From: Catajapyx aquilonaris
Lineage: Eukaryota
DNA: 52,188 nucleotides
Reading direction: 5' to 3'
Assembly (NCBI GenBank): GCA_000934665.2
Contig: JYFJ02002706.1
Coordinates: 1-52,188, forward strand
Position numbers and translations under genes: made by a program. The notes beneath the pieces are model-generated. The model ran no database searches. It was not told the DNA's origin and was given only the letters and a program-made list of their open reading frames with translations. Positions within the stretch are counted from its first letter, which is position 1. Every line of letters starts with the position of its first letter. Positions 591 to 31,480 of the stretch are shown here, in pieces.

Positions 591-1630
591 CTGAGCATTG
601 CAGACTACACACCTCTGACATCCCCAATGGTGCCTGCACTCGTGGTCCACTGCATCAATGAGATTGAGCACCGAGGGCTGAGTGAGGTTGGGATCTACCG
701 CATCCCTGGGCCAGAGAGTGAGGTCAAGGCTCTTAAGAGTCGCTTCTTGAAGGGAAAGGGACCGCCAACTATATCTGGGATTGATGTCCACACACTTTGT
801 GGTTGCCTCAAGGACTTCTTGCGCTCCCTGAAGGACCCACTAATCACTCGCATTCGTTGGAAGGACTTTGCCAAAGCAGCAGAAAACCAGGACCCTCAAG
901 ATGCCCAAACAGACATGATGCAGGTCATCTCAGACCTTCCACCGCCCAACAGGGACACATTGGCCTTCCTGGTCTTACATCTGCAGAAGTAAGGGTGGAC
1001 ACATATTCTTGAGCATAAAAATAATATGGGCACCTCCTTTGGGATTTGCATATGAGCTGTCATTCTGATAGCTCCAATTCAATGGTAACATACATGAAGC
1101 AAACTGATGCAAATATTTTTGTTCTGGCAGAGTTGCTGAGTGTGGCGACTGTAAGATGCCAGCCTCTAACCTGGCTAAGGTGTTTGGGCCTACCATAGTT
1201 GGTTTCTCTGAGGTTGATCCGAAGCCAACAACCATGTTGATTGAGGTGTCCAAGCAACAAATGGTATGTCTTCTTTGAACATCCTGGTTTTCCTTCCTGA
1301 GATTCAGTAACCACTCAAATTTGTGGTCCGCAGGTTATGGAGCGACTTATGGCTCTACCGACAGACTACTGGTCCACATTTGTGAACGTTGACACCAGCT
1401 TCATGTACACCCCTCAGACACGCGGATCAGCAGCACTGAACTACTCAGAGTCAGCCAGGTCATTAGGCACTCCTAGAGTTGCTTCTGGGTGAGTTTCGTT
1501 TTTTTTTCTCTCTCAGAATGATAGCAGCAGCAATAATTACGATGTAATAATATATCGTGTCCTCATATGTGGAACTTCTTATCATTGCAGCATGTTCAAA
1601 AGGAGCCTCTTCCAACACCATGGCAAATGA
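591..1630 (+). CDS. RACGAP1: Rac GTPase-activating protein 1 (CYK-4/Tumbleweed/MgcRacGAP) paralogue A, 3' part only (RhoGAP domain and tail)
   Basis: Exons 591-988, 1131-1263, 1334-1488, 1591-1630(TGA), all GT-AG with consistent phases. Protein: LSIADYTP..PALVVHCINEIEHRGLSEVGIYRIPG..LKDFLRSLKDPL..LPPPNRDTLAFLVLHLQKVAE..KMPASNLAKVFGPTIVG..DYW. Arginine finger CGC at 699-701 is intact. 5' exons lie outside the window. Confidence 0.93.
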
Positions 1631-2200: not shown

Positions 2201-4812
2201 TAGGTTTCTTATGATATATTGCAGGAATTTTAATATACGATAATAATTGTGCAGTTCTGGCACCAATTGAGTTGAAAAGGATAGAGTAAATGTAATGAAA
2301 TATTTTTCTGAATTCCAGATAACTGCCCAATTAAAGTATAATGGTAGGGTTTTTGATATTTCATTCCCAACTCTTTCGTCTTGTGCTTCTTGTCCGTTAT
2401 GTTTCCCTGATGTCAGATGTTATATTGTTGTGATGCTGTTATAAAAGTGAATCATTTATGCTGATGTGATTCCGTAGTGGATTGAAAAGTCAGTCTTTAG
2501 TGGAGTGCAGAGCCTGACAGTTGAAGGGTGTTGACATTTTAAAAAGTATTTTGAACTGGGAGAAAGAGAGGAAAGTCACTTCCAGTTTTTATTTGACAAC
2601 TAAAAGATGATGCTGACTCCTCTGATGTAAGAAAAAAATGTCATCAGTACTTAATTGCAGTGACCAATAAGTCACCATTTCAAATGTTTTATGAGAAAAA
2701 ACCTCATTTCATGATTTATGTGATAAGTAGAGAGAATCCAAGACATTGTGTGACAATTATTTCGTAGGTGCTTTCAACTGCAGCTGAGTGCAGAACCTGA
2801 AAGTCATTTTCCTGGTCGTGACTATCTGTTTAATTTATGAAAGCACCTGTAGTACTGGAACCAAATGTCTCTGAATATTAGTCTAAAGTATTTTCTTCAG
2901 CAAAAGTCTTAAGTGTGTCATTGCAAAACTGAACATTCCATTTTTTGTATTCAATTACCATGGCATTCGTTGCAATCTTTATGCTGGATTTCACTGCACC
3001 AAACAGCAAAGGTTTACCTGCAGCTGTAGGCTTGTGAGAAGAATACAGTATAAAAGAAATTAGCAGCCTTGTAAGCTCATCATGACATGATGTTTGATGC
3101 TATATATTGAGACTATTTTTTTGGAAGATTGGTTTATAGTTGTTTATATACCATGCAACAATCAGTGATATTAATCAGTACACAGACTATTACCAAAGTT
3201 ATAACCTCTCTTGTTGGCCTTCTTGGGAAGGGAAACGGGCAATTCCCATTAACTAATGCTGATGATGGGGATGCGTAAGTCGTCAGAAGCTTGCTTCTTG
3301 CTATACATTTACATAATGGAAGAATATGTTGTTCTAACCATGATGTAAGGACTTTTTTTTAAATAAGTTGAGCTTGGAACAGCGTAACAAGATTATATCT
3401 CAAATGGGATGGGAATATAATTTTTAATACTATTATTTTTGTTTTTCTTGATTTGTACTTTTATACGGTTGGTGTACCATCCACATTTCTACAGCAATAA
3501 AGCTGCTTGGACCAAAGTGAGCTATTTTGTTTTATTAATAAATTTGCTTCATTAAAGTAGTACCATGGGGCAGTCACAAGGGAGGTGCCAATTGGGGGAC
3601 CACAATCAAGAATCTCCTGGCAAGATGTGATGCAACATGTCAGACCTGTTTTTTTTCTGCCTTGTAAATATGTTAAATGCAGAATTTTCATGAACCAATC
3701 AGTCAGGGAGGAACACTCCCTCTAGGAGCAGCCACTGCTTTTCTCAGGTGGGCTATGCACTGATTGCTGAGGGCTGGCCAAAAGAGATGCACGTGGTGAG
3801 TTGGTGTTGAATCTCAGGTTCTTTAACATATCCAGTCAAATGACACACATCCTGGTCTTGGGACAATATCAGACAGGTGCTGTTGTAGGTTTCGAGGGAT
3901 GCTGCTTAATTTTTGAGAAGATTAAAGTACCCCTCTTTCTACCCTGGTTGAGCTCGTCAAATAAATTAAAGCCACAGAGAGTTTCTCATGAGACCCACGC
4001 TGTCATAGCCATGCAGATCAGTACTCCCTTCTCTCCTTGTAGCCCAGGTTCAAACGGACGACCTTGGGAGAATATACAAGTAACAGTGAATTTAAATCAT
4101 AAAATAGATTATTTTAAATAAACTGTACATTATCTGGGTGTAAAATTGTCCTTTATGTTGTTGTATTCACTTATGAGAAGGTAGCAGCTTTAAATAACAT
4201 TCAAAATTAAATTACATTCAAAATAAAGTTGTGAGGTTAGGAAGGCTAAAATGGATCAAAGTTAGAGCAGGCAAAATGACACCCCAACGAAAACCAAGAA
4301 GTTCCAAATGAATTTTAAAATTGCTGAAATGGTCCTTTTAAAAGGGGTGGAATAAGTCACGAAATACACATTTAAAGTTTTATGAAACTGACTGCTGTAT
4401 TTAGGTCCTGCAGTTATGCACTTATTAATTTGACAAGAAAATGAAGCCCAGTCAAATTTGCCTCTGGGAATGTGTAGAATTATTGAACGTGCTGTAGTTG
4501 TGTCAGGGTAATATTGGAAGAGTAATATTGGGTAAGCACTACGCACCAGATAAAAGGCAGTTCTTGGCCTTCAGTCAGTCTACTTCCACACGCAAAGTAG
4601 GTAGCTCCAGTTGATTCCTCCCCATTCTTTCCTCCTCCTCTTTTTCCTTCTGCATTTGTGAAGAGGTCAACACCAGCCGCACAGTGTACGAGTATAATAT
4701 GGTAATTCTGCACATTTAACATTTTTGTGTTAATATGATAATTTGTGTTAGAGGATTTCTTCATTGGCATTGGCTTGTGTAGTGTGAACTGAATAATCTT
4801 TCTGCTTAGAAG

Positions 4813-7800
4813 ATGTCGAAAAGCCTGGTCCAAGAATTTGATGAACTCACTCGGCAATCTTCCACCTTTCATAATGGCTGTGAAACAGGTTTGGTTGACA
4901 ACATTTGCTGTGCATTTACAGCAATAATACATTTGTGTATCATTTTTTAGAATTCCTTCAGTTCGTGGGAAACCAGCGGGAATGCATGCGTGGATGTCTG
5001 TCAACAAAGGATCATAGTCGGAAGCTACAGCAAGAGCTGAGAGATGTCATCAAGAACAATGAACGCCGGGAAGAGGCAGCTCGACGTCTCCTTAACAATG
5101 AGATGGCAAAAAGGCGACATGCTGAGGGGAGAGTCAAAGAATTAGTAAGGATTCAATGTAGTACTTTCATCTCAGGATTAGTTTTCGAATGTTTGATACG
5201 GTAATATACTACAGCAAGCTGAATTTCTTTTTGAGATTTGGCACTGGTCAGGGCAGTGCAGTGTATCTCGACAAACACTTTCATGAGCATGATTGAGTTG
5301 ATGGCAGTGCCATGTACGCTGAAGCCAGTAAGATGGCATTTCTCGTAACCTAGATTTTGCAGTAACAGGCTCTCAACTGTGCAAGGTGGTGTAGGTTTAC
5401 GTAAGCCACAGTGTGGAATGAAATGTGATGTATTACTAGCACTTTTATTTGTGTCTGTTCTTGATATCCAGAAATATATGTAGTAGCTATAATATTTTTG
5501 ATTATACAGTATGCATGACTGGATTTTACAGGAGACAATAATGTTGAAGATAAGAGATGTGGTGCAGCATGATGATGATAAATTTAGCAAGACCATGGCT
5601 ATTTGTGAATGTATCTCAACTGCATCAAATGTGACGCCAGTTGTTGCATTGAGAGATTCAGAAGGGTCTATGTTCGATGACCTCGACTTTGACCGCTCGC
5701 AGGATGACATGTGTTCATCCCGAATCATACGGTCTAGCAGGCGGCCCTCCCTCCTCAATGTCACGTCTACCTTTCTTAGACCAAAACAAGTCGTACCAGT
5801 TCATGTTGTTCCAGACATACAGGTAAGGGGTGTATATACAGTGGGGATTTACCTTATTTTACTTATTCTTGCTCCATTGCAGATAATTCGACCTTCGTCC
5901 AGTAATGGAACTACAGTTTGCGTCACTGAGGCAAGTTCTTCAAGACAGACTCCTATGGTTGGAGCAGCGTATCAAACGAATGGGTTTCAAAATGATCATC
6001 AAAACACACCATGTGAAAGGGGCTTCCCGATGACACCTCGAAGTAGTTCGGTCCTTTCCCTTGCTTCCTTGGACGAGAAGACACCCCTTGCTTGTTCCAC
6101 TTTCTGCCAGTCTGGTCCCAGCCTGGAAGCAGCTGGCATTGCCAATGGCCGTTACCCAACTCCATATGTTGTGCTTGAAGGTGCTGCTGTGGCCACCACT
6201 TCGAATTTCCAGGAGAGGGGGCACACATTTTCCACCAAGACATTGGTGAGATTTCTCAAGTGCTGTGGCTGTGGGAAAATGTGAGTATTCCAATTTACTT
6301 CATTCATTTTGTTTTTCTCTGGATACAGCAACATATATCTTGATTTGTTGGAACTCTGGAATGAGATTATTACTTTTTTAATCTTTTTGCAATATCTATC
6401 TGTATGGTGTTGTACAGTTTTGTACATTTTAGCTTAAGTTGAACTTTCTTTTTCCATACCATCGATAATAATAATTATTATTATTACAGGGCCAAGTTTG
6501 GGCATTCAGCACTGAAGTGTGAGCTCTGCAATGCTATCTGTCACATGGCTTGCGGCAGCAAGGTTCCTTTGCCATGCATTCCTGTCAATAAAACTTCTCC
6601 TCGGTCGTTCTTGGTATCTATGCCTTTCCTACTTTTTCCACACGTCATGTATGAAGGTCATGTAGATGAAAATGAGCCACAGTCATTGGGAAGAGAACCA
6701 GATGAGTTTGTCGTGACATCGTGTACACAAAACGAAGGCTGTACCAGTGTAGCATTATGACACACTGGGAGTAGGACATTTGGTCACTCGACACAGTCGC
6801 AGTGTGCTTTTGTTCAGGACCGCACCCATTCAAAAAGACTGTCCACTCAGACATGGGCCTTTGTTTTGTGTATAAGATGTCACGACAAACCCATCCAGAA
6901 ATTTGTTGTGAGACCATGGCTTGTTTTCATCTGAATGACCCTTACATTCAGAACAAGCACTTCTATCACTGCCTCATTTTAATTCGCATGCACTGATGAG
7001 GATATCGTCTCAAATTACATGAATTTCATTTTATACTTCGGTACTGATTCAAGCAAAAGGTAACTTCTCACATCTGGAGGAAGGGACCAGTCCAGCTCTT
7101 GACCTGGATGGGTCCTGTGGATGTGTCTGGCAACAAACAGGCTTGCGACTAGGTCACTTCCCACAGATATGAGAGTAGACCGTCAAGTAAACAAATCCAA
7201 CATCCCACTGTTTTTTTGTGGTTTCACTTTGTTTCATTCAGATTACGTGACACAGGCTTCTGGGATGATACCTGCACAATTTATAGGCCTTCAGCATTTG
7301 CTCAAATTGGCATGAATCAGAGCCCTTCATGATTTTACAACTGTGGTTTTTGTTGCAGGTGGCTCTTGCTGACTGTGCCCCAACAATTCCGCCAATGATA
7401 CCGTCACTGGTCGTGCACTGCATCAGTGAAATAGAGCGCCAGGGGCTGAAAGACATTGGTCTTTACATACTAAATGTGCCAAGGACTGAAGCCGACATAC
7501 TCAAAAATAGCTTCTTGAGAGGAAAGTATGGGCCTCCCAATCTATCTGGTGTGGATATCCACGTGCTGTGTGGTTGCCTGAAGCTTTTCTTTCAATCCAT
7601 GGAAGAGCCACTAATCACTTGCCTCCACTGGAAGAAGGTTGCAGAGGCAGCAGAGGGTAATGGAGACCTCAAGATCATCATCTCCGATCTTCCTCAACCC
7701 AACAGGGACACCCTCGCTTTCTTGATCTTGCATCTGCAAAGGTATGCAATAGTATAAGGAAGGTGTCGCCAGGTGAATCAATTACTTTTTCAATGTAATG

Positions 7801-8550
7801 TAAACATCACCCATTACTCCAGTACATCCAGACCTAAAAGTTCTCCCAGAAATTCTAATAAGAGATGACGATGCTTTAAGAATGTCACAAGATGGGTGAT
7901 GTATACCTGTACTTGATTTTTTTCAAAAGGTTTTCCCAGATATCAGGGTGATGAGAAACACTTTCAATGAAATGTGTGCATTGAAGTGGTGACAAATCAA
8001 GCCTTTTCCCCATAAAATCAGGGTAGCAGCTGAGCACGAATGCAACAAAATGTCAGCTTCTGTACTGGCCAAGGAATTTGGCCCCTTCATAGTCGGATAC
8101 TCAGAAGCTGATCCTAGGACGACTATCATGGTGAATGATGTGTCGAAGCAAAAGATGGTAAATGTGTAATGGTGAGAGTTAGGTTATTTTAAGTCCATGG
8201 TAAACTGAGAATTCTCCATTTGATGTGCAGGTGGTGGAAAAGCTGATGTGTCTCCCTGCCGACTATTGGTCAGCATTTCTAGACATGAAGGTCACTCGTC
8301 CACAGGAGTCACTGGTGTACACAGCATCTGTTGAGACTCCCAAGGTGCCTGCGAAGTAAGCCCTGATTTTAATCCCTATGGTACTGCATATGAACCAACA
8401 TGGCATGTCACTTTCCAACACCGATCACATTTAAACAGATTTAACATAGTTCAACCTTGGTTTAATAATAATAATAAACTAATAATAGGAAACTCTTATT
8501 TCAGATTTTTTGCCAAGAGGAAAAACCTTTATCAATCAAAGAAACGCTGA
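4813..8550 (+). CDS. RACGAP1: RacGAP1 paralogue B, full length (coiled coil, C1, RhoGAP), arginine finger replaced by Ile
   Basis: Exons 4813-4888, 4951-5144, 5532-5822, 5883-6280, 6490-6613, 7359-7741, 8022-8157, 8231-8355, 8505-8550(TGA); GT-AG, phases consistent, no internal stop. N-terminus MSKSLVQEFDELTR..EFLQF. C1 domain HTFSTKT..CCGC..CELC..CHMAC..LPC. GAP domain has GLYILN in place of GIYRIP. Confidence 0.9.
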
Positions 8551-8664
8551 TGTCGGATTTGAAGTACCTGTTTGGAAGGTTGAAGAAAAGTGGTCAATAA
8601 TATATCATAGTGTAAATAGTGATGCAATGATTAGAGATGATTGGAATTGACCACTCGCTTTTCT

Positions 8665-8774
8665 ACAATTTTAACAATTTTTCATCATTTTAGAATCATT
8701 CACAAGTGTAATATGAAGTACAATATATTGTACTTGTGAATGATTCTAAAATGGTGAAAAATTGTTAAAATTGT
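8665..8774 (+). repeat. Long near-perfect inverted repeat (43 bp arms) downstream of the copy B stop codon
   Basis: 8665-8707 acaattttaacaatttttcatcattttagaatcattcacaagt is the reverse complement of 8732-8774 with one mismatch; 24 nt spacer. Confidence 0.9.
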
Positions 8775-8818
8775 TAAAACAATCAAAAAATCACATATTT
8801 GATTGTTTCTTAGCTGCT

Positions 8819-9047
8819 GGGCCAAGATGTAAAAGTTTGCCCGTTTTGCAGTGCTATTAATTAAGTGTTTGTCCCGAAAATTTTCACTCCTTTGTACCTT
8901 TTAATATTAATGTTCTGTGGTTTTTTGGCGCGGTTTTTTGATTTTGTTTTTTTTTTATCTGAACGGGCCAAGATGTAAAAGTTTGTGCTGTATCATCCCT
9001 TAGCCCATTTTGCAGTGCTATTAGTTAAATGTTTGGCCCGAAATTTT
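8819..9047. repeat. Local direct duplication (~65 bp), second copy with an ~18 bp insertion
   Basis: gggccaagatgtaaaagtttg..ccc(g/a)ttttgcagtgctatta..tgtttg..cccgaaa at 8819-8884 and 8965-9047. Confidence 0.8.
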
Positions 9048-9325
9048 TATTGTTTCAATTTGTGCAAACAGTATTTGGGTCACAAATTTGTTCAAATCAT
9101 TATCATTAGTTCAAATAAATGGAAGTGTGACGTTACATATAATTGTTTGTAGTACGACCCCTTTTGTATCCAGCTGGATGCAGTGGATTGCACAAGACCT
9201 GGTTGGGGCTGCTTATTTTCTGCCCTGGGCAGAACTATTACAGTTCTGCCCAGGGCAAGGATCTCTCCATCTCTCATCGGTCAGAATGCACCCTACGCAC
9301 TCTGAAACGGTGATAGGAACGCGCC

Positions 9326-9502: not shown

Positions 9503-12212
9503 ATGGCCACTCTGGAGTCTCTGATGGAAGTCTCCCTTCGCAATGAGAAGCTTCTGGAGTGTTTGGTCTCTCGTGTGGACTGGTGTCAGGAGGCCATTGG
9601 AAGGATGGAGGGTTGGATGAAGAAGAAGCGTGGAAGGGAAGGGGCAGAAGGTAGACTGAGAGAATTTTCATGATCATTTAGGAACCACTCTGTAATCATC
9701 GGATATTAATATACAGCTTTGCATTCCAGACGTTGCTTCAGGCCAGTTGCTTCCCACCGAGTTTGTTTCTGTCGACACTGGAGATGCAGGCAGCGAGTCA
9801 ATGCCTGTGGGTAACATTGAAGAGGACATAAAAGTGGAGGAAGAGGATTGGGAACCAGAGCAGGTGATAGACTGAAAATTAAAGTGCCAGTAACCTTTTT
9901 AGTCAATTGAATAAAATGTGTTCTTGCTTTTTAGGGGAGCTGGATTAGGGGTGAAGCAGAGACAGCCAAAAACATCCGTGAAATCGCTTCACTTGTCAGC
10001 AATGTTGATTCAGAATTTACCTCGGCAGAAGTTCATTCCCACGGGATTCAAGGATCAGACGTCCTTCAAGAGGGAACACTGAAGCAGGAGACGGGCATGG
10101 AGAGTGAGTTATGGAGCCAGGTATGGTCATTGCTTGATTACTTGAGGAGGTGGAAGCTAAAAGCGGCTCAATTGACCAAACCTAATTTCCAGGAGAAAGT
10201 GCTCTACTTTTCAGTTTTGGTTTGGTTTGGTGCAAATGTGAATCCCACCATTTCCTCCTCTTGTTATTGTTCCAAGATTAGTCATGTCTAACTAGGTATT
10301 GGTTCATTAGGTGCACTTTTGCTCTTGAAAATTTTCATGGCAGTGCCAGCTCCTAAGGTGCCAAAAGTGCAGATAGCTACTTTTGACTTCCACATCCTCA
10401 CATGATTGTGTAGTGTTTGTACAATGTACAGTACATAATCTTGTAAAAAAAATTATTTCAATTATGGGACAGCCACGATGTAAATGAAGGAATTAAATAA
10501 TTTTTGATAAATCTTGCTCAATATTTTGTTGAATGCTGCAGAGATACTTTGTTGAAAATAATACGTAGAATACTCCCAAACGTGTTAACATTTTTCTCTA
10601 ATGACATATTGAAATAATTTTTGTCATGCTTGAGAGATAATTAATGCACATTGTTTCCATGGAAATGTGGCAGCTGCAAACAAGGTCGAAGAATTAATAA
10701 GGAAGTCATTATGCCAATGCATCATGTGTTGTTACCTCCGCACATTTATATCAATATGGTAGCAGTGCCATATTTTATGACGAGTTTAAAGCAGGGAAAC
10801 AGTCGGCTTGCAATTGTGATGATTATATTTTGGCACTTGAGGAACTCGCTACTTGTGTCAGTTACCTGCCAGATTTCCACTGGTGAATTATTGGTAATCC
10901 ATGTCTGATTAGATTATAATAGTCTTCATTTATTCGTGATTTTTCCGCAGGCCTCCACTTCTGCAACCTGGGAGAACACTGAGTCCATCAAAGTTGAGGC
11001 GATTCCATTAGAGGCAAGTGTTTCACATAATAGTTTAGCACATGGCCCATGTCAAAGAGTAAAAATGAGGATGCAGTTTACTGTAAGTAGTGTGAATAGA
11101 ACTGTTTAGAGAACAAGAGCAGATTAAGTACAAGTTTTACTGAATATTGCAGGTTGATGAACCAGGAAAGACCGAAATCAGTGACCTGACATTGGGTGTG
11201 AATGACTCCAGCAATGAACATGCCCCATCCAGTCACCCAGCTGATGATCCTGGTTGTGGCTCAAGTTGGAAAAATACCCAAAGGAGACAAAGGAAGGTAT
11301 GTTTGTCCCCTGTGTCCGAGTGTTCCAATGTCATAAGTGCATTAATTTGTAAGATTTTGTTGAAAAGTAAAGAAAGACTTGCACTTTCATACATGTATGT
11401 CAGTTTCAGTTTATGTAGTGAATCTTCAGAATTTAAGACATTGTGCATTACTTTTTGATTCAACATCGCATTGAAACTTTGGTAGAATTAGCTGAATTGG
11501 CTTCTATCTTGGATTTAAGGAAGGCCACAGATTGTCATGCAACTAATCCCAACAACTTTTGAATTCTTTGTAGCGCAAGCAACTAATGCAGCCAACTGAA
11601 ACAGAGAGTTCAAACATCACTGATGGCTTCTCTGCTGAGTACCAGGGGACTGCTGGTGCTTTGGATACAGTGAAAGGACAGGAGCTGTCAGGAAAGAAAT
11701 GGCATCAGTGTGATCAATGCTCATATGAAACGCAAGACAGTGCAAACTTCAGGAGGCATAAAATAGGTCACAGAAGTGGTGAAGAGGATTTAGGTTGCAG
11801 TGGTCACGAAAAGCGATTTGCCTCTAACCAATACATGCAGTTGCATTATCATCCTGACCCTCTTGGTGTTGCCGCTTTTTCTTGTGAAGTTTGTGGTAGG
11901 AGGTTTAGTGAGAAGAGCAGTTTGGAGGAGCACAAGCTGACCCACACTGACAAGAAGCAGCATTCATGTGAAATATGCAAAAAATCCTTCACTCATGCTC
12001 GACAATTGAAGTATCACATGGATGTTCATACTGCAGAAAGTAACCCTTGCTCCTATTGTGGCAAAATGTTTCGGTACAGGTCTCAATTGGCTGAACATTT
12101 GAGGGTCCACACTGGTGAGAAGCCGTATTGTTGTGACATATGCGAGAAGAAGTATGCTCGTCGTTCTGGCTTAAATCATCATAAGAAAACCCACATATCG
12201 GAAGGGTCATAG
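9503..12212 (+). CDS. C2H2 zinc-finger protein (five intact fingers plus one degenerate; acidic N-terminal half)
   Basis: Exons 9503-9650, 9730-9863, 9935-10120, 10951-11013, 11153-11296, 11574-12212(TAG); phases consistent if intron 11014-11152 is GC-AG. The last exon has CxxC..HxxxH fingers and an HTGEKPY linker. IKVE motifs occur in exons 2 and 4. The start codon (gccATGG) is less certain than the finger exon. Confidence 0.85.
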
Positions 12213-14164: not shown

Positions 14165-16764
14165 TCACCGGAAGAGACTGAACATGCTGAAATGAAGAAA
14201 ATCAATATAAGTCATTGGTAAAATATGAATATAATGTGCATATGGAATTCATGGCTGACCTTGATGTGACCTTGGGCATCCCCCGGGTTGGTGTCCCAGA
14301 ACCCTTTTGTGGGGAATACTTAAGGGCGGCACCAATACTAAGGAAGGTGGACCAGTAATCCACAGATATGGACATAAGTCTTTCAATTACCTAAGGAAAC
14401 AAGAGTAAAAGCACAAATGTCAGTGCATACCAACAATTGTGAAGCAAGCTTGTGGCAATGAAAGGGTCTGAAGTAGCGAGCGTACCTTTTGCTGCTTGTA
14501 CACCTCTTTGGTTATAGTGTCCTGGTCAGGATCAAATGCAGAAAAGCCAACTACAGTGGGTCCAAACACTTTGGCCAAGCTTGAGGCTGACATCTTGCAC
14601 TCAGGGCTATCTGCCACCCTAATTAAAATAAAAATGTTGTACTATATCGCTCAAAAACATAAGAGACGATTTTGCATTGAGTCAAATGCAAAAACGTCTC
14701 ATGTTTTTGAGCGATATAGTACATAAGTAACTAATTCTTCTACTTTGTTCAATATTTTGCACAACAACAAAATGTCCGAATACAGATAATGTAGCACCAC
14801 GCACATTGTGATTTTTGCCTGATTTTAAACCGTTTGCACTGGATCAATGGAACTGCTCGTCCTTACTTTTGCAGATGTAATATGAGGAAAGCCAAGGTGT
14901 CCCTGTTTGGCTGAGGAAGGTCGGACACAGCCTGCATGAGGTCAGCTTCAGAATCATGTGGATCTTTGTTCTCTGCTGCTCTCACAAATTCTCTCCACCT
15001 GATGGTGGTGATGAGTGGCTCCTTGAGGGTGCTCAGGAAGAACTTGACGCAGCAACACAGCACGTGAATCCTAACCCCAGACAGGTTGGGAGTTCCCCGT
15101 CCTCTCAGAAAGCGGTTCCTCAAGGCCTTCACTTCTTGCTCAGGGGCTGGGAAGCGATACAGGGCCCTCTCGGAAAGGCCCCTCTGCTCTATTTCATTGA
15201 CACAGTGCACCACAAGAGCAGGGATCATCGGTGGTAACAATGGTGTGTAATCACCTAACGGCAGCTGTTAGGGAATAAAATGCAGGACATGTAGCAAAGA
15301 ACACGTATAATTTTGGAATATGCGTACCTTGACTCCATTGGTTGCTGAAGTTGTTACGCTAGGTATGCATGGGAGTGTTACCTTTCCTTTGCAAATCCTG
15401 TGGCATGTGGTATTGCATTCTTGGCACCTCAGGACAGATTCAGCCAGTCTCATTCTGAAGTTTTAAAAGGAAAATGAGCGTTAACAGCAAAAATAATGGT
15501 GACAAAATGCTGTGGTGAATTAAAACAATACACACACAGCTTTGTTGTGAAACTAACCTTTTCCCACATGGCTCGCAAACATCAAGACGTATGTTAGTCT
15601 TATCCACAAAAGCATGTGGCCTCTGGTTGAAACTACTCGGTGACCCCGAGTTAATCCTGCGAATCAAAGTAGATGAAGCCCCACCACAACGTGAATTTGG
15701 CACAGGTCTCTTGCAACCCCCAAACTTGCTTCTGCTTGGTAAACCGCTTGGACAATCATCAGATTCAGCCGTATCACTACATGGCAACTTGGTATCACCA
15801 TGCGGATTTGATGTTACATCAGTAGTTGCTGGTTTACGTTTAGGTACGGATGAAGTGGTTGCAGCTCCACCTCGACGTGTGCTAACAACTGCAGAGGTCA
15901 GTATTTCTGTCTCATTCTGAGTAATTTTTTTGGACTTAGTAAGTGTGTTTTGCTTCTTAAACTGTCTTAACCGTTGGCTGTCCAGGTTGTCATCGGAGCG
16001 ATCAAAGCTGAGGTCTGACAGATTGGTGCCTCCGGAGTCACTTCCACCAAATTTTTGTGCAGTCAGGTGAAGGAGAGAGTCGCACATGAGGAGTGCTTGA
16101 GATTTATTATGGCGGGAGGACTCACTGCTATCCAAAATGAGGAGATCCTTCAGCTCATGTAGTCTAATCTCCTGCCAATAAGACATGTTAATATTAATAC
16201 CACTATGAAATAAACAAGATCAAAGTGTAACTTTGGTTTGCTATTATTTTTCTTTATGTAGGTTTGCTGTGGTCAAGACTATACCTGGCCAATTTTACCA
16301 TCAACTAAATTTTGCAACATGGATTACATTATACTGTTAAAATAGTCGTTTTTTGTTGATTAGGTCATGTTATGCTTAAATTTAAAATTATTATCCTTAT
16401 TACCAGTGTCTCACACTTGGTGTCTGCAAGCTTCCGTTTAAGTGTCTCACGCCCAAGTATTCGACGAGCATGTTGCAACTGTCGCTCGTGATTGACTGTC
16501 TTCTTCCCTGCCTCCTTCAGCTCCTGCTGTAGTCGACAGCACTCTTTCCGTGCAGCCATCCCCGCTTGCTGACATTCCCATTGTTTCTTGATAAACTCCA
16601 GCAGCTCTAAAAACACACACACACACATCAATTTGTAAACTTATTGATGAACCAGTTTGCCACTTACCTGTTTCACATGCATCGTAACTGTCAGACGAGT
16701 GGTTGCAGAGGTCATCAAACAATGTCACTACTGATGATGACATCTCAGCTTCACACGAATCCAT
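14165..16764 (-). CDS. RACGAP1: RacGAP1 paralogue C, full length (coiled coil, C1, RhoGAP)
   Basis: Exons 16764-16668, 16606-16404, 16171-15558, 15454-15328, 15264-14867, 14618-14486, 14390-14260, 14186-14165(TGA); GT-AG, phases consistent, start ccgccATGG. GAP exons are 398 and 133 nt, identical in length to copy A. Motifs VVTLFDDL, LSDLSFDRS, C1 HAFVDK..CEPC..CQEC..CHRIC..LPC, ALYRFP, LPQPNRDTLAFLILHLQK, LAKVFGPTVVG. Confidence 0.92.
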
Positions 16765-21358: not shown

Positions 21359-24300
21359 TATTCAGGGTTATCTGGTTACGGGGATCGATCCGGGGTGGCT
21401 TTGGTGTGAGCTTCCGGGCAAGATTTATCGCGTGTGTCACTACCTGATGCAATGTTTCACATGGGAAATGATCCCGGTGGAGGATGATCGATCTGCGTCT
21501 CCTGGCTGGTCATAAATGCATTGCCTCCAGAGAATATTATCCGGGGCTCTGTTTACGCGTAATGGCAACACTATACGCTGGCTTTCAATAGCTGCGGGGA
21601 TAAATAGTTTTTAGGATTACGTCTTTCCAGACGTTCCAGGCCTGGTATTTGCGCAGTTTTGTTGCTTGAAGGACTCTGTGTTTATATAGCGCCTCTTGGA
21701 ACGACCGTCCTGAAAAAATAGTTCTCATTCTTTGTTAGAACCTTCTGGCTTGAGCCGAGAGCTTGCTGAATATTCATTATGGAAGATAAACGCTGTCACG
21801 TACCTGCTTCTTGCAGGGTCCACATCCCGCAGGCGAAGTCGTCCACCATTTCAAATTAGAGGTAACATAAGCATTCTGCAGCCCATGTTTTGCTTTCCAG
21901 CTCCAGAATTAATTGGTAAATTTTACGAGTTCTAAAACATATTTATTTTCAGTCCACACTATTTTTTTTGGACATATTCTGAATGGTTTCATGAACTCTA
22001 TAGTGTTGCCTACACAGTACTTTGTAGTAGGCGCTAATGGCCCCCATTTTCCAATCAAGTGTTTGGAGTCGTAGTAACACCACAGGATTGCACTTAATTT
22101 CACGAGCCTCAGCACTGGGACCGCCAGACAACTATACAACTGATGGATGAAAAGAAGGGGCCAGAATATGATACCGCGTAAGTTACGATCTCGCACCATT
22201 ATAAAGGGCATGCCGCCCAACTTGAGGGCTGCCAAAAACGCAAACACTTTAATAAGAAAATTTCAGGCCCGCCGATTATATTGCCTGGGTATATAAGAGC
22301 TGGAGGTGCTGTGCTGTTCCGGAGTTATTAAAATTCCTGGGGAGATTTAGTTATGGCACCCATGTGCCTTGAAGGGGGGGGGGGGAGCGAGAAATAACGA
22401 ACGAGGGAAGTCTCGCCCGATTTAGAAATGCTGGATGGGAGAGGATGATGGGGAAAAAAGGAGGCGGCACAATCTTGCACCTAACATAAGCGCGGTCTGA
22501 GATTAAAAACCAAATTGGGGTATAAGGGACCCCCACCGAAACACGAATCAATATTGGTCACAGCGTGACTCCCTTTGCACATCTGATTCAATTATGGGCT
22601 CCCTCAATACTATTTTGTGTGTGTGTGTGTTCAAAGTAACTTGTTCTAAAAAAAAATTAATTAACCGAGTGACACTCGAATTTCATGGCTTCCCAGTTCT
22701 AAACTTCTGGAAAAGCCCCGGGCGTTAAATGTTTGCGAGAGTACTTTACCCGGAATGAACTGATAAGCAATTATGGACATTATTTTTTTAAAGTTGATGA
22801 GTTTAATGAACTGAACTGGCTGCATCAGCACGGAAAACTTAGATGATGATGCGTCAAGTGAGTCACCGTTTTTGACATTTTTGGGATCAAAGATTGATCC
22901 ATTTTGTAAACGACATTATGTCAATCACATTTCCTATAATAGGGGGTAGACATAAGTATATTCTCAATAGTGGCTTACAAAATAATACTGTATGTGTCAC
23001 AACATATGACATTGCCTAATTCCTATAATAATTCAATTTAAGACACAGCCGGCTCTATATAGGAAGAACGTGACGCCCATACTATGATTGTGACGCTTTT
23101 AAGTAACGTCTGCAGACTTACAATGAGGCGAGTGTAAATGCTGAATTTACCTCGGTTTTAATGATTGCTGAGTTGCACCAAAAAAGGTTGACAATCCATG
23201 CTGAGAAGTAGCAGGGTGCTTATTCGCAAAGTTGGTAGCTCAGTTTTTCTCTCTGCATTTTGACATTCTCACGTCCCTTCCGTTTCCTCCTCCCCTCTCG
23301 AGGTTTTCCTGTTAAAATGACTAAAAGCAAGGGTTGCCATAGTGAACTTGTTTTTATTAGCCTCATTTTGCGTTGCAAAACATTGCGACCTAGAGGGGAG
23401 AAGCGACGAGGGGGGAATTTTCAACTCTGCGAAAACTAAGGGAAACGTGCTGTTTTGGTATATTTGCACTCAGCACAATGTAACACCCGGTGTTGCTATG
23501 TGACATCCACGCAAAAGTCTCTCAACCATTTTTTAAATAATCTTTACTGCATATACATTCGTAGGACTTGCAGCCAAGCATTTTCAATAAAACCTAGTGA
23601 AATGAATTGCAGGAGAGATTTTTAAAAAAGCAGGTCAAAAGGATTTGGATTTTTAGAAGTTTGAGTTTGAGCTCCCCGTTGACGTGATTGAGGAGAATCC
23701 CTGTGTGTGAGTTTCTATGCGCCTGAAGCCTTGACGTTTGATAAAATCCGCGTCCCTCCATTTCAGACAGTATGTTAATTAAATGTAAATGTAATGTCAC
23801 TGACATGTTGTCTCGAGAGCAGGGGTGTCTGTAAGTAATGGCAACGAGGTTTATATTGACATGCCGCCAAAGCAGACGGATTATACTGACACTTTGATTC
23901 AAGCACGTTACTTTTACGTAAGAGTGTTGATGGCCGCACAACAGTAGCCATTAATACCCTTTCCAGCAATTGAAAAAAAAATGTCCCATGTTTTTTTGCA
24001 ATTTTTGTAACGATTTGCTGGAATACCAAAAAAATCCATAATAATTTCTCTGTGGTTGATTGATTTTTTTTTGAGACATTTTGCACTGTATATCACACCA
24101 TGTCCTCATAACCCACCAAAATTCGCTGCCTTCCCCGAAAGTTCACGTATACACTTTGTACACCGGTGATTTAGCGGCTCATTTAATTTTTCTCACCCAG
24201 TTTCATTACTCACTCAGTGTCTCTGCCTCATTGCTTGCGACCCCGAACGTCTCCCGGTAACACAAAGCGGGCTTATCCGGCAACTTTCCAGTGAATGGCT

Positions 24301-27300
24301 AGCGCCTCTTGGCTGAGCCCATGAAAAGCCATTGAATGAAAAGGCGCCCCCCCCCACCCCCCCAACACGAGAAGTACGTTAATTAGCGCGGGGTCCCGAG
24401 AGTCTTGAATCGGTCAGGATCCGAGGAAGTGGTTGGGTGTCGAAAATGCCCGGTTGGTAGGGGTCTGCCTTTTTTTTTTTCTTCTTCGGATGCATAATTC
24501 ATGGTGTCGCGAGTAGGGGCCAAAGGGAGCTGCAACTGGACGAACGACCATTTTAACTGGTGTCCACCAACCGCATTAGGTTGCGCCACAGCTGATTTCA
24601 CATTCCTGTCCCGATGGGGGGGATGCCTTTAAAAATTCTAGGCAGCTGGTGATTGGATCCGTCTTATGTGTACCTGTCCTCATGAATGTGGCACGAGATA
24701 GACGGAAAGTGCGAGTTTTTGATATACACCTGACGGATTAAGCCGGTCTGGTGGCGCGGGATTACTGTGGGGGACGTTTCCGTGTCATGGAGGGTATGTA
24801 ATGACGCAATTTAAGGGATGTCGTGGGGAAATTGCATATAGGGCTATAGGTGCATGAGTTGCATGTTGCAAAAGGGCCTGGTTGTATATAGGTCCTCGTG
24901 TTGTGATTACTGAAATATTGCAGAGGAGGGCTGCCTCGTTTGGAGTATTTTGCTCCATGCATTTTATTGATGCGATACCTTTGCTGTAGGCTACCTGCCA
25001 ACATTTCCATTGCTAGCTGATAGTAGCGTGCGCTGATTAGTGATTAGTGAATTCATCTGTGTTCACACTCTTTCCAGGGCAATTAGTTGTTTTTTGGTGG
25101 GAACCGGTGCGCGTAATGGATGCTGATATGTTCCTTATAGCGCTGTGCAGCATCTAGTTTTGTGAGAGAACGCCTCGTGGCATTAATGTATTCAAGTCGT
25201 ATAAGAGCAGCAGTCTACGGATTCATGCCGTAAATTCCGGCAGTGTACAGCTATAGTGCCATATTACATGTGCATTGTTAATCGGGGGTAGGTTCAGCTG
25301 CTGGAGCGAGCAGATATATTCCAACGTCACTTTGCAGAGTATTACTCCAAAGCCAAAGATTATATGCACAGCGATTGATGGCGGAAAAAGAGGCTGTAAT
25401 CCTATGGTCATGTGGCTATCAGTTTCGAGCAGATGAATGGATAAAGTGAGTACGTGACTCTGCATTTCTTCGACAGCTTGTTACGCAACCGGCGCATAGT
25501 AAACACTATAGCAACACAAAACAAGGTTTAAAAAGCTGCCAAAGAATTTTTTTAAACGGCATATCTTTTCCAACTTTGTTGTTGGTTCGTATCAAACTCT
25601 GTGCAGTATGCGGATGATGCATATTTCAAAATTACGCAAACATGATCCTTGTTAGCACTTTACTGTCCTGGCTAATAAAAGCCACGAAATCCTCCCTATG
25701 TGCTATGCAGTCCTGCAGTGTAATTGGCCCATAACTAAAGGGCACAGGCCCCAGTTTATTTGAGGCCAACGACTGCCATTCCTCTATAAAGGCGCGGCTC
25801 ATCTCTCGTGCTGCCTGGGAAATTGAAGGTATATAAGACGGATCCTCCATCCGACTAATAATTGATGGCGTTCCAAATTCGATTTTAATAAAAAGGTGGA
25901 AGGAAGTCCGGACGTAAAGGCACGGCAGGTTCCCGACCTACGATATTGAGCTCTTGGCCTATCTAGGAAAACTATTGGATTAACGTCGTGAAATATGCCT
26001 CCACTTATAAGAAAATCAATGCGGACAACGTGGTATGTATGATGGGATATGACGTAAAATATTTGAAATTTTTTTATCATATTAGACTGTACCGGCTGAG
26101 AGAGGACAATGCACTGCTCATGTTTTTTCTCCGTCGAGTTTCGTTGCAGTTTAATCCAACAGATTTCTTTTCTGGGTTGTGCAACATGAAGCCGTAAAAA
26201 AAACGGGACAGACGAGAGAAAAGATGAAATAATAGCCGAGCGTAAAGATTTTTACGTCGTTTTTATCATGAGTAGTGGACCATTAATGGCCCCGCTGTCG
26301 CGTTGAATGTACGGATTCAACGACAAATGTTACTATATTCGGCCGTCCAGGCGATCGAACTCTGGGGCGGAATAAAAAGCAGAACCCATCGACTCCCTTG
26401 AATACTGACAAAAATTTATAGTACTTCGACGCAAAAAAACAACTTTTTTGCAAAATATTGTTTGTTTATGTGTAGACAGCCACGCCGGATATAAATATAT
26501 CATTGGACGCAAGTGGTGCGGAAATAATGTCCAGAATTTTCAAGATGCTTCTCGAAATGTGATAAAAACAACGCAGCAGCTTTTCTTTTGCCTTCGAGTC
26601 GTAAAGGCTATTACTTTTCCCCAGCCATTTTATGAATGGAAAACTTCAGAAAAACGCAACTCGCATCATGTTGCAGCTCACATCTCTCTCACAACTGTTG
26701 CCTCGACAGCTTCTCTTTTTTTTGAACCGAATGGGCCTGGTGAATTTAATAAAGCGGACGCGATCTTTCAGAGAAAAGAATCGCTCTCACTGGCAAAGCG
26801 GATCGACACCAATGTCTATAGTTTTAAAAAACTGATGCCCCTTTAAAAATAATGTAATATCGTATAGGCATACTACAGAACTCGTCCAGTTTTGTCGGAT
26901 TTGAGTTATTTTAACTATCAAGTCGCATTTTTTACTTCTATTCTATTGCTGATTCATACTGAGCCCATAGACCTTAGAGCGTCTAAGGTCTATGACTGAG
27001 CCACCAGGAAGCCAGGATTTTCTGCCTTCACTTTTGGATTATCTTGTTTTTTATTTTGTAGATTTTTCTTGCATGCACACGATATGTAGGGGGGATTGAA
27101 GGTGATATCAACCTCCCCTCTCATGCTACACTCCCCTCTCCAGCACCAGCACCCACCAAAAGACATAAAAAAGAACTCCTGGTTTCCGTCACCAATCTTG
27201 GACCATGCTGGGGTCGTGCACAAAACCCTGTGCCACCTACATTAAGGCATTGTCGGCTTGACGCGAATCGATTTCCACGTCTCCATAACACACGTAAATT

Positions 27301-30300
27301 GGTTATTCCGCCTTGCCTCCCCTCTCCCCTCTCCCCTTCCTTCCTTCCCCCCCTTCTCTATACTTCTCTCTGGCAGAGTTGCCAAAGTGTTGTCTGTAAA
27401 CCGGGGCGGTTTTGTCCAGCCACTGCAGAAATTAAAACTTGGGGAGTAATTGGAGCGTTTTATGAGAGAGGGGGGGGGGAGAGAGAGAGAGGTTTTAGAG
27501 CNCGGGGGGAAGCTGGAGTAACGGACGATCAATGTTCTGGAGAAGTTGAGAGAAACTGGAGAAAAGTGAGTGACGCCCACAGAGTTTGTGCTGCTGAATG
27601 AAAGGGGGGGAGGAGACGATGAAAGAACAGCCTAGAGAGGATGGATATATACGCTGCAAATGTTCCGTGATTCCGCTTAGTCACATGTGGGGAAGATCAG
27701 TCATGGTTGGTACAACTTTGTTTGGAATGGGACTATACCACGCGTCTTTGTGTGACATCAAAAATAGCAGGGTGGGCATTGTGTGAAGCTCGTTTGTCAA
27801 CAGTATATAGGGAACGGGGTGGAGGATAAAGAAGAAAAAAAAATCAGTGGCATCGAGCCACGTATTTACGGAAAGGAAATTGAAGGGTGGCATCGCGAAA
27901 GTTCGTCGTGATGCACTTTCTCTGTAAACTATTATATTCTGATATTCAAAAGGAGCACGACAAACGGCATTGTGTGAATTCTTGTAACATACGGCATCAC
28001 ATAAAGTGGGTATATGTTTAGTAATGCTGTTACCCTCGTAGCTTTCGGGTGACATCACGACAGAGTAATGATTACGTCATTCTTCTTTTGAATTATTAAC
28101 AGTGACAGGGGTCCAGATGAATGGTCCCTTTTTCTGGGACTCTTTACCTCATTATGGTGTGGGTTAGGTGAACCCATGGGAAGCATTTTAATAATAAATA
28201 ACCAGTAGGCCCATTTTTCACATTTGTTACACTCTCACTTAGGTTAATTAATAACGAATTTGTTGACTTAACTGACAATTATAAACAACTGTAGTATGTG
28301 ATGTGTAACTAAGGTTCAGTCCACACACACACACAATTATATATAAAAAATCACATCCGTGCATTATTCCGCAGTATTCAAATAATAAAATAAACTCGCA
28401 GTTCTGTCAACTGATGTAAGTTTAATTTGTGTGCATTACGTCAGTGAAGCATACAGATTATTTGCTCACTCCAAACCACCCCAGCAGGCTTGCTCATGCG
28501 GTTATGTGGGGTAACTAACTGCAACGCTAGCAAAGTGCTACATGGGTTCAGGAAACATAAATGTTTTCGTCTCACGTATTCGGTCCCTATATACCAAACC
28601 GCCTCCCCCCCCCCCACTCCGTCCCCCTCTCTTGCAACGTGATCTGATAATTCAAATATACTGCAAAGTTGATGACAACATGGCAACATGCTTTTCCAGA
28701 ATGTCAAGAGGAGGGGGGAGGGGGAAGGGAAGTCCACGAGGACCTTCATTTCACTTTCTGCTTTTGCAAGTGAAGAGCTCACGGCATTGAACCCCCCCTC
28801 CCCACATTCCGTATAATTTGGAGTGAGGAGGGGAACCGGATTTATCGACTTTTGTTGCCCGACGCCTTTTATGTAACTCTGAATTCAGAATATAATATGT
28901 ATAGAGTGCAAGCGTGCGGTAAAGCTGCTGTGACAATGAAGGGTCTGCGAGTAATTATCATGCTGGAAGCAGAATAGAAACATTTTTATGAGACTGTCAC
29001 ATGCTCTGTATAACGGTTTGATAATTGCATTGTGGCATGCTTTATTTTTGCAGAGAGACGTAAATTCAACCAGCGCTGACGGGGATTTCCCTGCCTGTAC
29101 AGTGAGTATTTTATGCAGCATGGTTGTTATACTTCTAATGATGATGTGTGTGCTACAGTATACATGCCCCGAGTAAATTGTAGCAGGGATATGTGTCTGC
29201 TGGGGATAAGCAATGTGATTTATAGTACTGCGTGTAGTTAGAAACCTCGAGCTAGTTACTCTCATACCCTGTACAGTGTGCGGTTGTTCTCCCCAGTCCT
29301 CAGGGGAATAAGTTACGGATTGTTTACTTCAGTTTAAAGAGACGCAACCGTACTGCAGAAGCAATTGTGGTGATTGCTGCTGATGGAACAACCCATATCT
29401 TTACCACCTGACTTGAACTGTGCATTGAACACTGCATCACCCTGTACACAGCCTCAGGTGAAACGTTACCAATGCAAGGCCTTCAATGGCCCCTGGGATT
29501 TTCCAGGGGCTTACATCCTTCAGACAATACCTCCACCTTGATTCTTGGCCTGGCTTTAGTCAAAGTGATTCCAGAAAATATTAATACCCCCCATTTCGGC
29601 AGCACAGGAGAAGGTGGGAAGAACAAAAGCGAATGAGGCTGCTTGAAGACAGGCGACGGTAATGAAGTCCTAGTAACGACCACATTTCGTCAAGCAGTAA
29701 AACGGGTGTTATTCAAGTAATTATGAAGCAGTGGCTGCCGCTACAGATCTTGGATGACGCGACAAAAGGCGAGGGAATCGCAGTTTTAATTGGATCTTCA
29801 GGCGGACGTGTGCGGTTTCTTACGTTGAACCCGTCCTGGATGCTGCTGCCTTCACCTCAGATTTTTTTTACGACCTGACGAAGCAGACGGCTTGAGATGC
29901 AGTTCTTCATTTACTGAATAATGAAAAGTGAGGCCCTGGCGTATAATACAGCAGTAAGTTGCAGCAGGCCGATTGTTACAATGTTATATGCGTTGTCAGC
30001 AAATAAAAAGCCAGCCCAGTGTGAACTACAGAGCTTTATACCTCATCTTGTAGCAGGAAATGTTCAATGTGTCTTTACAACCGGGATAAAAAGTAGAAAA
30101 TGCTAACCTTGCGACTCTGTCCAGAGTTTACCGGAAGGCTTATTCATTCCAAGACGCTGTTTGACACCGGATAAATTCCTGATATACCCTCCCAGAAACT
30201 TGAACCCCGGACAAAAAAACCATCTCCGCATCGTCTTGGGAGGTCGTTGGCAGTATTGCGGCTGAAAGGCAAAGTATAAAGCGAAGGCAAGCAGCATCCG

Positions 30301-31480
30301 AGGCCCGTTGTGTGCGGTTTTGGCATCGCCTAGAGAAGCTCGCTGGCAAACTGAGGCTGCAAGTGACATCCTCCTGGGAGGATCTCCGTGGTATGCTCGA
30401 CCAATTCCGTGCAGCATCTATTTTTTTGTCCCACCCGCCCGGTTCCTTCGCAAAAACCCGCGACAAAATCCGCCCGCTAAAGAAGTGCATTAGAGTGCAT
30501 GGTAGGGTGTTTGGAGGGCATCCCGTAATTTTACACCACCACCGCACCTCTCGCGGAAAAGCCCGGGTTAGGTCCGTCATCTCTCTCCAGCTCTCTCTGT
30601 GTGTGTGAGGCCCCAGTTATGGGCCTGGGAGGCGTTGCGAATTATCGATCCCCACTGTTTTTACAGCTCCCCAGCAAATTCGAACCATATTTCCCCTGCT
30701 GCAGCCCTGCAGGGTCCAGGGGGTGTTAAGGGCAGAACCATTTTCCGTGCGTGCCCCTCTTCCGCGTGTCCATAGCTCTTATCTTCCCCTCTTGTTGCCT
30801 ATAGGCCTTATCTGCCCCCCCCTTATGAGTTAAACACGGTGTCGTGTCACCCTCCCCGAAAATCGGTAGTTAGGACAATTTTGTGTGGTGCCCTCTGGAT
30901 TGCAAGCAAACAGGGCTCAGAAACTCTGCGGTGATGTGATATCTGGAGAAATGTGCGCCTGAGGCTATATCATCGTACAAAATTGGGCACTCTACCGGTT
31001 GAATTTCCACATTTTCATCCAGAATAGGAATCATGAAAATCCTTCCGGGGAATGGGCTCCCCCCGCCCCTATAAGTAAGGCAGTGATTCTCATGGGGAGG
31101 GAAGGAAATGAAATTTCCCTGTCAAGCTTCCTTCCCATTTCCATCCCAGGGAATTATCATGTGCCAATTCCTGCGCTTTCAAGCGACTGTAACACAATTA
31201 ATTAATAGACCCGAACTCCCTCCACCAACCGCCCCACCCATTCTACTATCCGCCCCTGTTTCATATTTATAGCCACTGATTTTGACGGGCTCTCTCCTGC
31301 GGGAAAACTGACGTTCATCCTGCGGTTTGTGCAACCTGCTGAGCACCCAAACATTCGGGTAGCATGCATGCCAGGATGATGTGTTAATAGCTCGGTGTAT
31401 ACAGATCAACCGATGTGTACCATAAAATATATGTATTTGTTGTTTTCCTTATACATTCTTTTTTAAAATTTATAAACATT

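What the first reader, a model, noticed from the sequence alone, without database searches (positions are those of the whole stretch)
7455..7480. Copy B has Ile at the arginine finger: an intact pseudo-GAP
Seen: GGT CTT TAC ATA gives GLYI (Ile codon 7467-7469) where copy A has GIYR. The downstream conserved Arg is Gln and the conserved Asn is Val. All nine exons, the C1 zinc ligands and the PQPNRDTLAFLILHLQ core are preserved. Established: arginine-finger mutants of RhoGAPs lose catalysis. Inference: the fold is under selection but catalysis is not, so it may be a scaffold or a dominant-negative partner for the kinesin-6 (Pavarotti/MKLP1) complex.
Basis: partly seen in the sequence, partly recalled or inferred. 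Interest (0 to 1): 0.7.

Follow-up and report, generated by a model that had tools for sequence, protein, structure and literature searches.

The report
Expressed catalytically dead RacGAP1 duplicate
An arthropod keeps an intact, apparently spliced extra copy of a key cell-division gene that has lost the residues for switching off, and probably for gripping, its Rho target, while its motor-protein partner is also duplicated, hinting at a second, specialised version of the cell-division machine.

Summary
ATA (Ile398, 7467-7469) replaces the arginine finger in copy B, one of three RacGAP1/tumbleweed paralogues on this contig. Three DNA runs (possibly the assembly's source) and an intron-skipping contig from a second study carry the same letters. 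B is a 590-aa, nine-exon gene under purifying selection (omega about 0.2). It has lost more than catalysis: Arg440Gln, Asn503Val, Val507Glu and Thr511Phe change the Rho-binding face, so a GTPase trap is less likely than a Rho-uncoupled scaffold. The kinesin-binding N-terminus, coiled coil, Ect2-docking segment and C1 ligands remain; the serine matching human S157 is Asp. Copy A is canonical; copy C keeps the finger but lost two binding residues. The genome also holds two old MKLP1/pavarotti paralogues but one ECT2 locus. Full-length fingerless RacGAP1 paralogues occur separately in a damselfly and one unnamed record. Fingerless RhoGAPs and wasp RacGAP1 duplicates are known, so this is a new variant. 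Pairing with the second kinesin, tissue and biochemistry are untested. The scan noted one unrelated pseudo-GAP in another genome, and no look-alike of this gene.

The parts
4813..8550 (+). Copy B RacGAP1/tumbleweed-like gene, 590 aa; coding exons 4813-4888, 4951-5144, 5532-5822, 5883-6280, 6490-6613, 7359-7741, 8022-8157, 8231-8355, 8505-8550
   Evidence: exons 4-6 seen joined in X5 record 28
4590..4701 (+). Probable 5' untranslated exon of B (boundaries approximate, inferred)
   Evidence: X5 depth 18.5 (that of record 28) at 4610, 4649 and 4673, and about 112 unexplained nt in the record
4813..5144 (+). N-terminal kinesin-6-binding helices and coiled coil (exons 1-2), 42% identical to copy A over codons 4-101; no signal-peptide-like hydrophobic stretch
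   Evidence: role inferred from PMC8501884 and PMC4838857
5661..5708 (+). Plk1/Ect2 docking segment; Asp142 (5685-5687) at the position of human S157, where A and C keep Ser; Glu134 and Asp149 at S149 and S164 are shared with A
6222..6577 (+). C1 zinc finger across exons 4-5 with all 8 ligands (H301, C314, C317, C330, C333, H338, C341, C349)
7467..7469 (+). Ile398 (ATA) at the arginine finger; Gly+3 is Val401 (7476-7478)
7581..7595 (+). Helix B: Lys436 kept, Arg replaced by Gln440 (7593-7595)
8062..8088 (+). NLAKVFGPT motif changed to VLAKEFGPF: Val503, Glu507, Phe511
591..1629 (+). Copy A, 3' exons (591-988, 1131-1263, 1334-1488, 1591-about 1632); canonical GAP; its 5' five exons lie on G000:C8622 (minus strand)
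14165..16764 (-). Copy C, 8 exons, about 574 aa; finger Arg kept, second Arg is Ser425 and Asn is Ser493; spliced contig in X5 (record 30)

Best explanation
Copy B is a real, transcribed, selectively kept tandem duplicate of RacGAP1/tumbleweed (the non-motor half of centralspindlin) whose GAP domain is a pseudo-GAP. It has lost the catalytic arginine and several Rho-contact residues, so it most likely neither speeds GTP hydrolysis nor holds Rho-GTP well. It keeps the parts that bind and switch on kinesin-6, dimerise, dock Ect2 and bind membrane. It therefore probably acts as a Rho-uncoupled scaffold subunit: it bundles midzone or bridge microtubules and anchors them to membrane, without the RhoA feedback and release steps that the normal GAP domain provides. 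Shown here: the sequence changes, the intact gene, splicing of exons 4-6 and purifying selection. Inferred: loss of activity and binding, complex formation and cellular role.
For: Residues: the finger Arg is in 186 of 189 homologues, the second Arg in 172 of 189, Asn in 176 of 189 and Thr in 175 of 189; B differs at all four, by 2-3 nt per codon from A. Binding determinants: PMC8305018 names Arg282, Lys319, Arg323, Asn391, Val394 and Pro398 of p50RhoGAP; by motif spacing B has lost 3 of these 6. B has changed 2 of the 3 positions of the C. elegans Rho-binding mutant R459A/K495A/R499E. That mutant still supported central spindle formation but impaired cortical recruitment. Non-conservative changes fall at 5 of 18 conserved columns in the three interface segments and 6 of 71 elsewhere, p=0.04. 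Selection: A-B GAP omega 0.23, bootstrap 0.13-0.35; branch omega 0.18, LRT against 1 p=1.5e-5 for C1+GAP; neutral drift of 0.2 per site left 0 of 1000 simulated frames open. Transcript: X5 record 28 skips introns and X5 depth is 0 at the listed intron positions. Fold: exon 6 model pLDDT 89.6, TM 0.84 to human RACGAP1 2ovj. The N-terminal 65 aa of Tum activate Pav motility (PMC4838857).
Against: No activity or binding was measured. Lys436, Lys506 and Pro510 are kept, and a solved complex of finger-less p50RhoGAP with RhoA-GDP-MgF3 exists (5m6x, listed), so some binding or activity may remain. The interface enrichment is modest and its segments were drawn from recalled structural knowledge after I had seen the data. 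Overlap of B's changes with those of the two other fingerless paralogues is not significant (p=0.07 and 0.31). The branch model splits dS poorly (copy A omega 0.45-0.76 is implausible), and the N-terminal region alone does not reject omega=1 (p=0.26). Of 5 variant codons listed in B, 4 change the residue, though all lie in the linker and come from one contig. In C. elegans, Rho-binding mutants fail in the germline, so the use of such a protein is not obvious. X5's library type is not on record; RNA is my inference.
Confidence: 0.6

Rival explanations
1. B is a brake or trap. It heterodimerises with copy A through the coiled coil, or holds Rho-GTP without hydrolysing it, and so dampens or prolongs furrow signalling.
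For: The coiled coil is kept. PMC6056237 raises the possibility that complexes with even one mutant GAP domain cannot localise. Lys436 and Pro510 remain. Catalytic-only mutants linger on the cortex (PMC11565784 abstract).
Against: A trap needs the binding face, and B has changed Arg440, Asn503, Val507 and Thr511. A second kinesin-6 exists that could separate the complexes. Co-expression with A in the same cells is unknown.
Confidence: 0.15
2. The GAP surface was rebuilt for a new, non-Rho partner, and B has left cytokinesis, as proposed for mutated wasp RacGAP1 duplicates.
For: Radical surface changes on a kept core; B's branch is three times A's (0.60 vs 0.19); the same reading was offered for wasp paralogues (bioRxiv 2023.06.05.543686).
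Against: B keeps the complete centralspindlin architecture and the Ect2 segment (73% identical to A over 22 codons) and has no signal-peptide-like stretch. The Leptopilina proteins lost the coiled coil and C1.
Confidence: 0.12
3. B is still an active GAP with altered specificity, using Arg403 (five residues after the lost finger) or residual finger-independent catalysis.
For: Arg403 sits where 131 of 189 homologues have Glu or Asp. The model's least confident block is the finger loop (pLDDT 65), so its geometry is open.
Against: That position aligns with the start of the next helix in human RACGAP1 rather than with the finger loop; that this lies away from the active site is recalled. The other binding residues are also lost.
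Confidence: 0.06
4. B is a duplicate in early decay: still transcribed, with no function.
For: It matches only 84 of 110 family-conserved columns, against 100 for A; it has lost a 6-residue stretch in the GAP domain; most listed variants change the residue.
Against: Synonymous sites are near saturation (pS 0.61-0.71 against A) yet the frame and all splice sites are intact. Young duplicates in this genome (PRC1 copies on C547, the kinesin piece on C3000) are already broken at 77-97% identity.
Confidence: 0.07

Closest known systems
RACGAP1/MgcRacGAP/CYK-4/Tumbleweed (PDB 2OVJ, 5C2J, 5C2K)
   Same: N-terminal helices and coiled coil, Plk1/Ect2 segment, C1 and RhoGAP order; best sequence and fold matches; intron positions shared with canonical copy A.
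   Different: No arginine finger; second Arg, Asn, Val and Thr of the Rho face replaced; S157-equivalent is Asp; one of three paralogues.
Arginine-mutated RacGAP1 duplicates of Leptopilina venom and Venturia calyx (bioRxiv 10.1101/2023.06.05.543686; review PMC13301370)
   Same: RacGAP1-derived, expressed, catalytic Arg and often other Rho-contact sites replaced, buried residues under negative selection.
   Different: Those arise by partial duplication and travel in vesicles into hosts (Leptopilina: signal peptide, no coiled coil or C1; one Venturia protein keeps a coiled coil). B is full-length, has no signal-peptide-like stretch, and sits in a genome with a duplicated kinesin-6.
Human fingerless RhoGAP-domain proteins (ARHGAP36, OCRL1, INPP5B, DEPDC1/1B, FAM13B) and p85
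   Same: RhoGAP fold without the finger, described as inactive; p85 lacks the binding determinants Arg323 and Asn391 that B also lacks (PMC8305018).
   Different: Unrelated architectures; none is a centralspindlin subunit.
Engineered C. elegans CYK-4 R459A and R459A/K495A/R499E mutants (PMC6056237, PMC4552957, PMC11565784)
   Same: B is a natural change at two of the three positions; the mutants still build a central spindle.
   Different: They are loss-of-function alleles of a single-copy gene; B coexists with an intact copy A, keeps the Lys and has Gln rather than Glu.
Ischnura elegans XP_046398097.1 (P0128) and unnamed P0235
   Same: Full-length RacGAP1-like proteins with coiled coil and C1 and no finger Arg (Ser, Glu); P0128 shares the Val-to-Glu change.
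   Different: Outside the A/B/C clade, so probably separate origins; both keep the second Arg. No description of them turned up in my searches.

Membership tests
RacGAP1/CYK-4/tumbleweed family (by descent) | RhoGAP domain closest to RACGAP1 | tested here: met
   Pfam PF00620 70.8 bits; best PDB sequence hits RACGAP1, E 8.8e-25; best fold hits MgcRacGAP
RacGAP1/CYK-4/tumbleweed family (by descent) | C1 domain with 8 zinc ligands just before the GAP domain | tested here: met
RacGAP1/CYK-4/tumbleweed family (by descent) | N-terminal kinesin-6-binding helices and coiled coil | tested here: met
   Aligns with A (42% identity) and homologues; sequence level only
RacGAP1/CYK-4/tumbleweed family (by descent) | Groups with RacGAP1 orthologues in a tree | tested here: met
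   A, B and C form a clade, support 1.0, among 189 homologues; no non-RacGAP1 outgroup was included
Catalytically active RhoGAP | Arginine finger | tested here: not met
   Ile398
Catalytically active RhoGAP | Helix-B Lys (p50RhoGAP Lys319) | tested here: met
   Lys436
Catalytically active RhoGAP | Binding determinants Arg323 and Asn391 | tested here: not met
   Gln440 and Val503; mapped by motif spacing
Catalytically active RhoGAP | Measured stimulation of GTP hydrolysis | not testable with these tools
   needs an assay
Centralspindlin subunit (function) | 2:2 complex with an MKLP1/Pavarotti kinesin-6 | not testable with these tools
   Binding regions are split across exons in both partners; two candidate kinesins exist
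Centralspindlin subunit (function) | Plk1-primed Ect2 docking site (S157) | tested here: inconclusive
   Asp142 instead of Ser; Asp or Glu also occurs there in 9 of 77 matched homologues, all of which keep the finger
Wasp venom/calyx-type RacGAP1 duplicates | Partial duplication with loss of coiled coil/C1 and gain of a signal peptide (Leptopilina type) | tested here: not met
   B is full-length; highest 9-residue hydropathy in the first 40 aa is 0.54
Pseudogene | Frame or splice damage, or neutral evolution | tested here: not met

The most novel reading that the evidence does not exclude
This lineage has built a second centralspindlin from duplicated subunits. The fast-evolving kinesin-6 on C2164 pairs with GAP-dead B (and/or C). 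B's acidic residues at the S149, S157 and S164 positions make Ect2 docking partly independent of Polo, and its dead GAP face removes RhoA-dependent release. The result would be a non-dissolving complex for stable bridges such as germline ring canals. Fingerless full-length paralogues in a damselfly and another insect-like record would be repeated, independent solutions of the same kind.
Probability: 0.2. Interest if true: 0.72.

Novelty: new variant of a known kind. Interest (0 to 1): 0.48.

Why it matters
What the CYK-4 GAP domain does in cytokinesis (turn off Rac, turn off RhoA, or bind RhoA to target the complex) has been argued from engineered mutants of a single-copy essential gene. Here evolution has kept a three-step series side by side: intact A, finger-only C and fingerless B, with a duplicated motor. 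Swapping these GAP domains into fly or worm rescue constructs would separate catalysis, Rho binding and scaffolding. It would also test whether animals use specialised centralspindlins for incomplete division. If B is only a kept pseudoenzyme, it is one more example of a known theme.

Tried and rejected
Assembly error: rejected by four runs. No RNA holder listed; the evidence for splicing comes only from laying X5. No close orthologue of B: the best hits in two protein searches were 51-59% identical over exon 6, so conservation in related species is untested. Single-sequence fold of exon 6 failed (pLDDT 37); the alignment-based model worked but covers only 127 of about 190 GAP residues. PDB search with exon 2 gave nothing relevant. 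No complex prediction was run: the GAP domain and both binding regions are split across exons. Co-duplication of PRC1: rejected, as the extra matches on C547 are young, broken copies of C416. A third kinesin-6: C9667 and C3000 are 88-97% identical partial copies of C2164, and C3000 is rearranged. The anillin family gave 2 loci, not examined; SHCBP_N gave one weak match. Zero DNA-run cover over 15169-16262 in copy C is not interpreted. Convergence of individual sites among fingerless paralogues was not significant. A PP2A-B56 LxxIxE motif near the Ect2 segment is missing in B and C, and A's only match lies upstream in the coiled coil, so it is not B-specific. Amin et al. 2016 was not held; interface residues come from the review PMC8305018 instead. 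The sequence look-up in earlier scan findings returned nothing.

Full report
Setting. The window is the whole of contig C1321 of a 286-Mb assembly; homologues point to an arthropod with no close relative in the protein collections (best full-length identity to copy A 45%). Two searches of the genome found three RacGAP1-like GAP exons, all in the window. The 5' half of copy A lies on C8622.

Observation. 7467-7469 is ATA, Ile398 of a 590-aa, nine-exon frame with GT-AG introns. All 8 intron positions and phases match copy A. It aligns with the Arg of human RACGAP1 GLYRISG. I aligned the 189 of 263 retrieved proteins that were 500-760 aa long. Among them the finger is Arg in 186, the helix-B Lys is in 189, the second Arg in 172, the Asn in 176 and the Thr of FGPT in 175. 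B has Ile398, Lys436, Gln440, Val503 and Phe511, plus Val401 (Gly in 162) and Glu507 (Val or Ile in 181).

Reads. Three DNA runs, possibly the assembly's source, have contigs over about 6790-9172 with no differing letter. Run X5, from another sample and study and of unrecorded library type, has a 1686-nt contig whose listed pieces are 5880-6281 and 7358-7739, with 122 nt between them (exon 5 is 124 nt) and no differing letter. X5 depth is 0 at the listed intron positions. I read this as spliced mRNA. The junction rows themselves were cut from the output, and the contig ends about 104 nt past exon 6, so exons 8-9 are not shown spliced. Copy C has a similar contig.

Selection. A, B and C form one clade (support 1.0; 192 sequences, 358 columns), with branches of 0.19, 0.60 and 0.46. 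A against B over 187 GAP codons gives pS 0.61, pN 0.24 and omega 0.23 (0.13-0.35). A three-branch codon model gives omega 0.17-0.18 for B and rejects 1 for GAP (p=9e-4) and C1+GAP (p=1.5e-5), but not for the N-terminus alone (p=0.26); its split of dS among branches is unreliable. In simulation, 4 of 1000 frames stayed open at 0.1 neutral changes per site and 0 of 1000 at 0.2. Seven listed variants fall in five linker codons, four of them non-synonymous, all from one contig; 30 variant rows were not shown.

Mechanism. PMC8305018 (passages) lists p50RhoGAP Arg282, Lys319, Arg323, Asn391, Val394 and Pro398; by motif spacing B has lost three. PMC6056237 (passages), PMC4552957 (passages) and PMC11565784 (abstract and one section) define R459A as the catalytic mutant and R459A/K495A/R499E as the Rho-binding mutant. 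Both still build a central spindle. The binding mutant impairs cortical recruitment; the catalytic mutant delays release. B resembles the binding mutant at two of three positions. Non-conservative changes are enriched in the three interface segments (5 of 18 against 6 of 71, p=0.04), with segments drawn from recall after seeing the data. The exon 6 model has the RACGAP1 fold. The N-terminal helices that bind kinesin-6 (PMC8501884, passages) and activate Pav (PMC4838857, passages) align in B, but binding is untested.

Ect2 segment. Numbering from PMC5586252 (passages) laid on homologue P0002 puts human S157, the primary Ect2 docking site (PMC2680336, passages), at B Asp142; A and C keep Ser. 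S149 and S164 are already acidic in A and B. A four-Asp human mutant binds Ect2 BRCT without Plk1 (PMC2680334, passages). Asp or Glu at this site also occurs in 9 of the 77 homologues that the pattern matched (112 of 192 sequences did not match), and all nine keep the finger. So the change is tolerated in working orthologues and is not unique to B.

Partners. The MKLP1 tail family matched three contigs. C1834 and C2164 are distinct genes: 54% identical over 425 codons, pS 0.75, P-loop and both switch motifs present. They are sisters among 90 of 120 retrieved KIF23 homologues (support 0.98), with C2164 the faster (0.65 against 0.36); the set lacks close relatives. Their middle exons and expression were not examined. 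ECT2_PH matched one contig. Extra PRC1 matches are young broken copies. Pairing of B with C2164 is only a hypothesis.

Other cases. The three fingerless homologues are Ischnura elegans XP_046398097.1, an unnamed protein that groups with beetle sequences, and a Leptopilina protein. The damselfly protein is sister to A/B/C at 0.86, which may reflect long branches. Arginine-mutated RacGAP1 duplicates are described in two wasp lineages (PMC13301370, passages; bioRxiv 2023.06.05.543686, passages and section 24; its figures and supplements were not visible and may list further cases). Five literature searches found no description of a full-length fingerless RacGAP1 paralogue alongside a duplicated kinesin-6; the library lacks most subscription journals. 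PMC8870657 and PMC3010078 were seen as search listings only.

Verdict. A real, kept pseudo-GAP of the RacGAP1 family; most likely a Rho-uncoupled centralspindlin scaffold (0.6), with brake or trap (0.15), new partner (0.12), decay (0.07) and displaced finger (0.06) as rivals. It is a new variant of a known kind, interest 0.48.

Noticed in passing
window 14165-16764 (-): Copy C keeps the arginine finger but has Ser at the second Arg and at the Asn, and lacks one intron that A and B share; spliced contig in X5.
   Followed up: partly
G000:C1834 about 2300-25750 (-) and G000:C2164 about 24260-33965 (-): Two old, divergent MKLP1/pavarotti paralogues with intact motor motifs; C2164 evolves faster and has partial young copies on C3000 and C9667.
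   Followed up: partly
window 11574-12212 (+): C2H2 zinc-finger open frame between copies B and C, in a region with high repeat depth.
   Followed up: no
window 14638-14705: Short, very high-copy repeat in an intron of copy C; matching pieces near 1514 and 7923 in introns of A and B.
   Followed up: no
G000:C547 about 27800-32100 (L062): Two inverted, broken, near-identical copies of the PRC1/fascetto gene of C416.
   Followed up: partly
P0128 (Ischnura elegans XP_046398097.1) and P0235: Full-length RacGAP1-like proteins without the arginine finger in other insects; probably independent cases.
   Followed up: partly
P0121 (Phthorimaea operculella, 1352 aa): Protein with 10 matched RacGAP1-like GAP stretches; may be a repeat array or a gene-model artefact.
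   Followed up: no
window 31481-33690: GC-rich stretch with several long overlapping open frames, not examined.
   Followed up: no
window 7482-7484: Arg403 in B where homologues mostly have Glu or Asp, five residues after the lost finger.
   Followed up: partly
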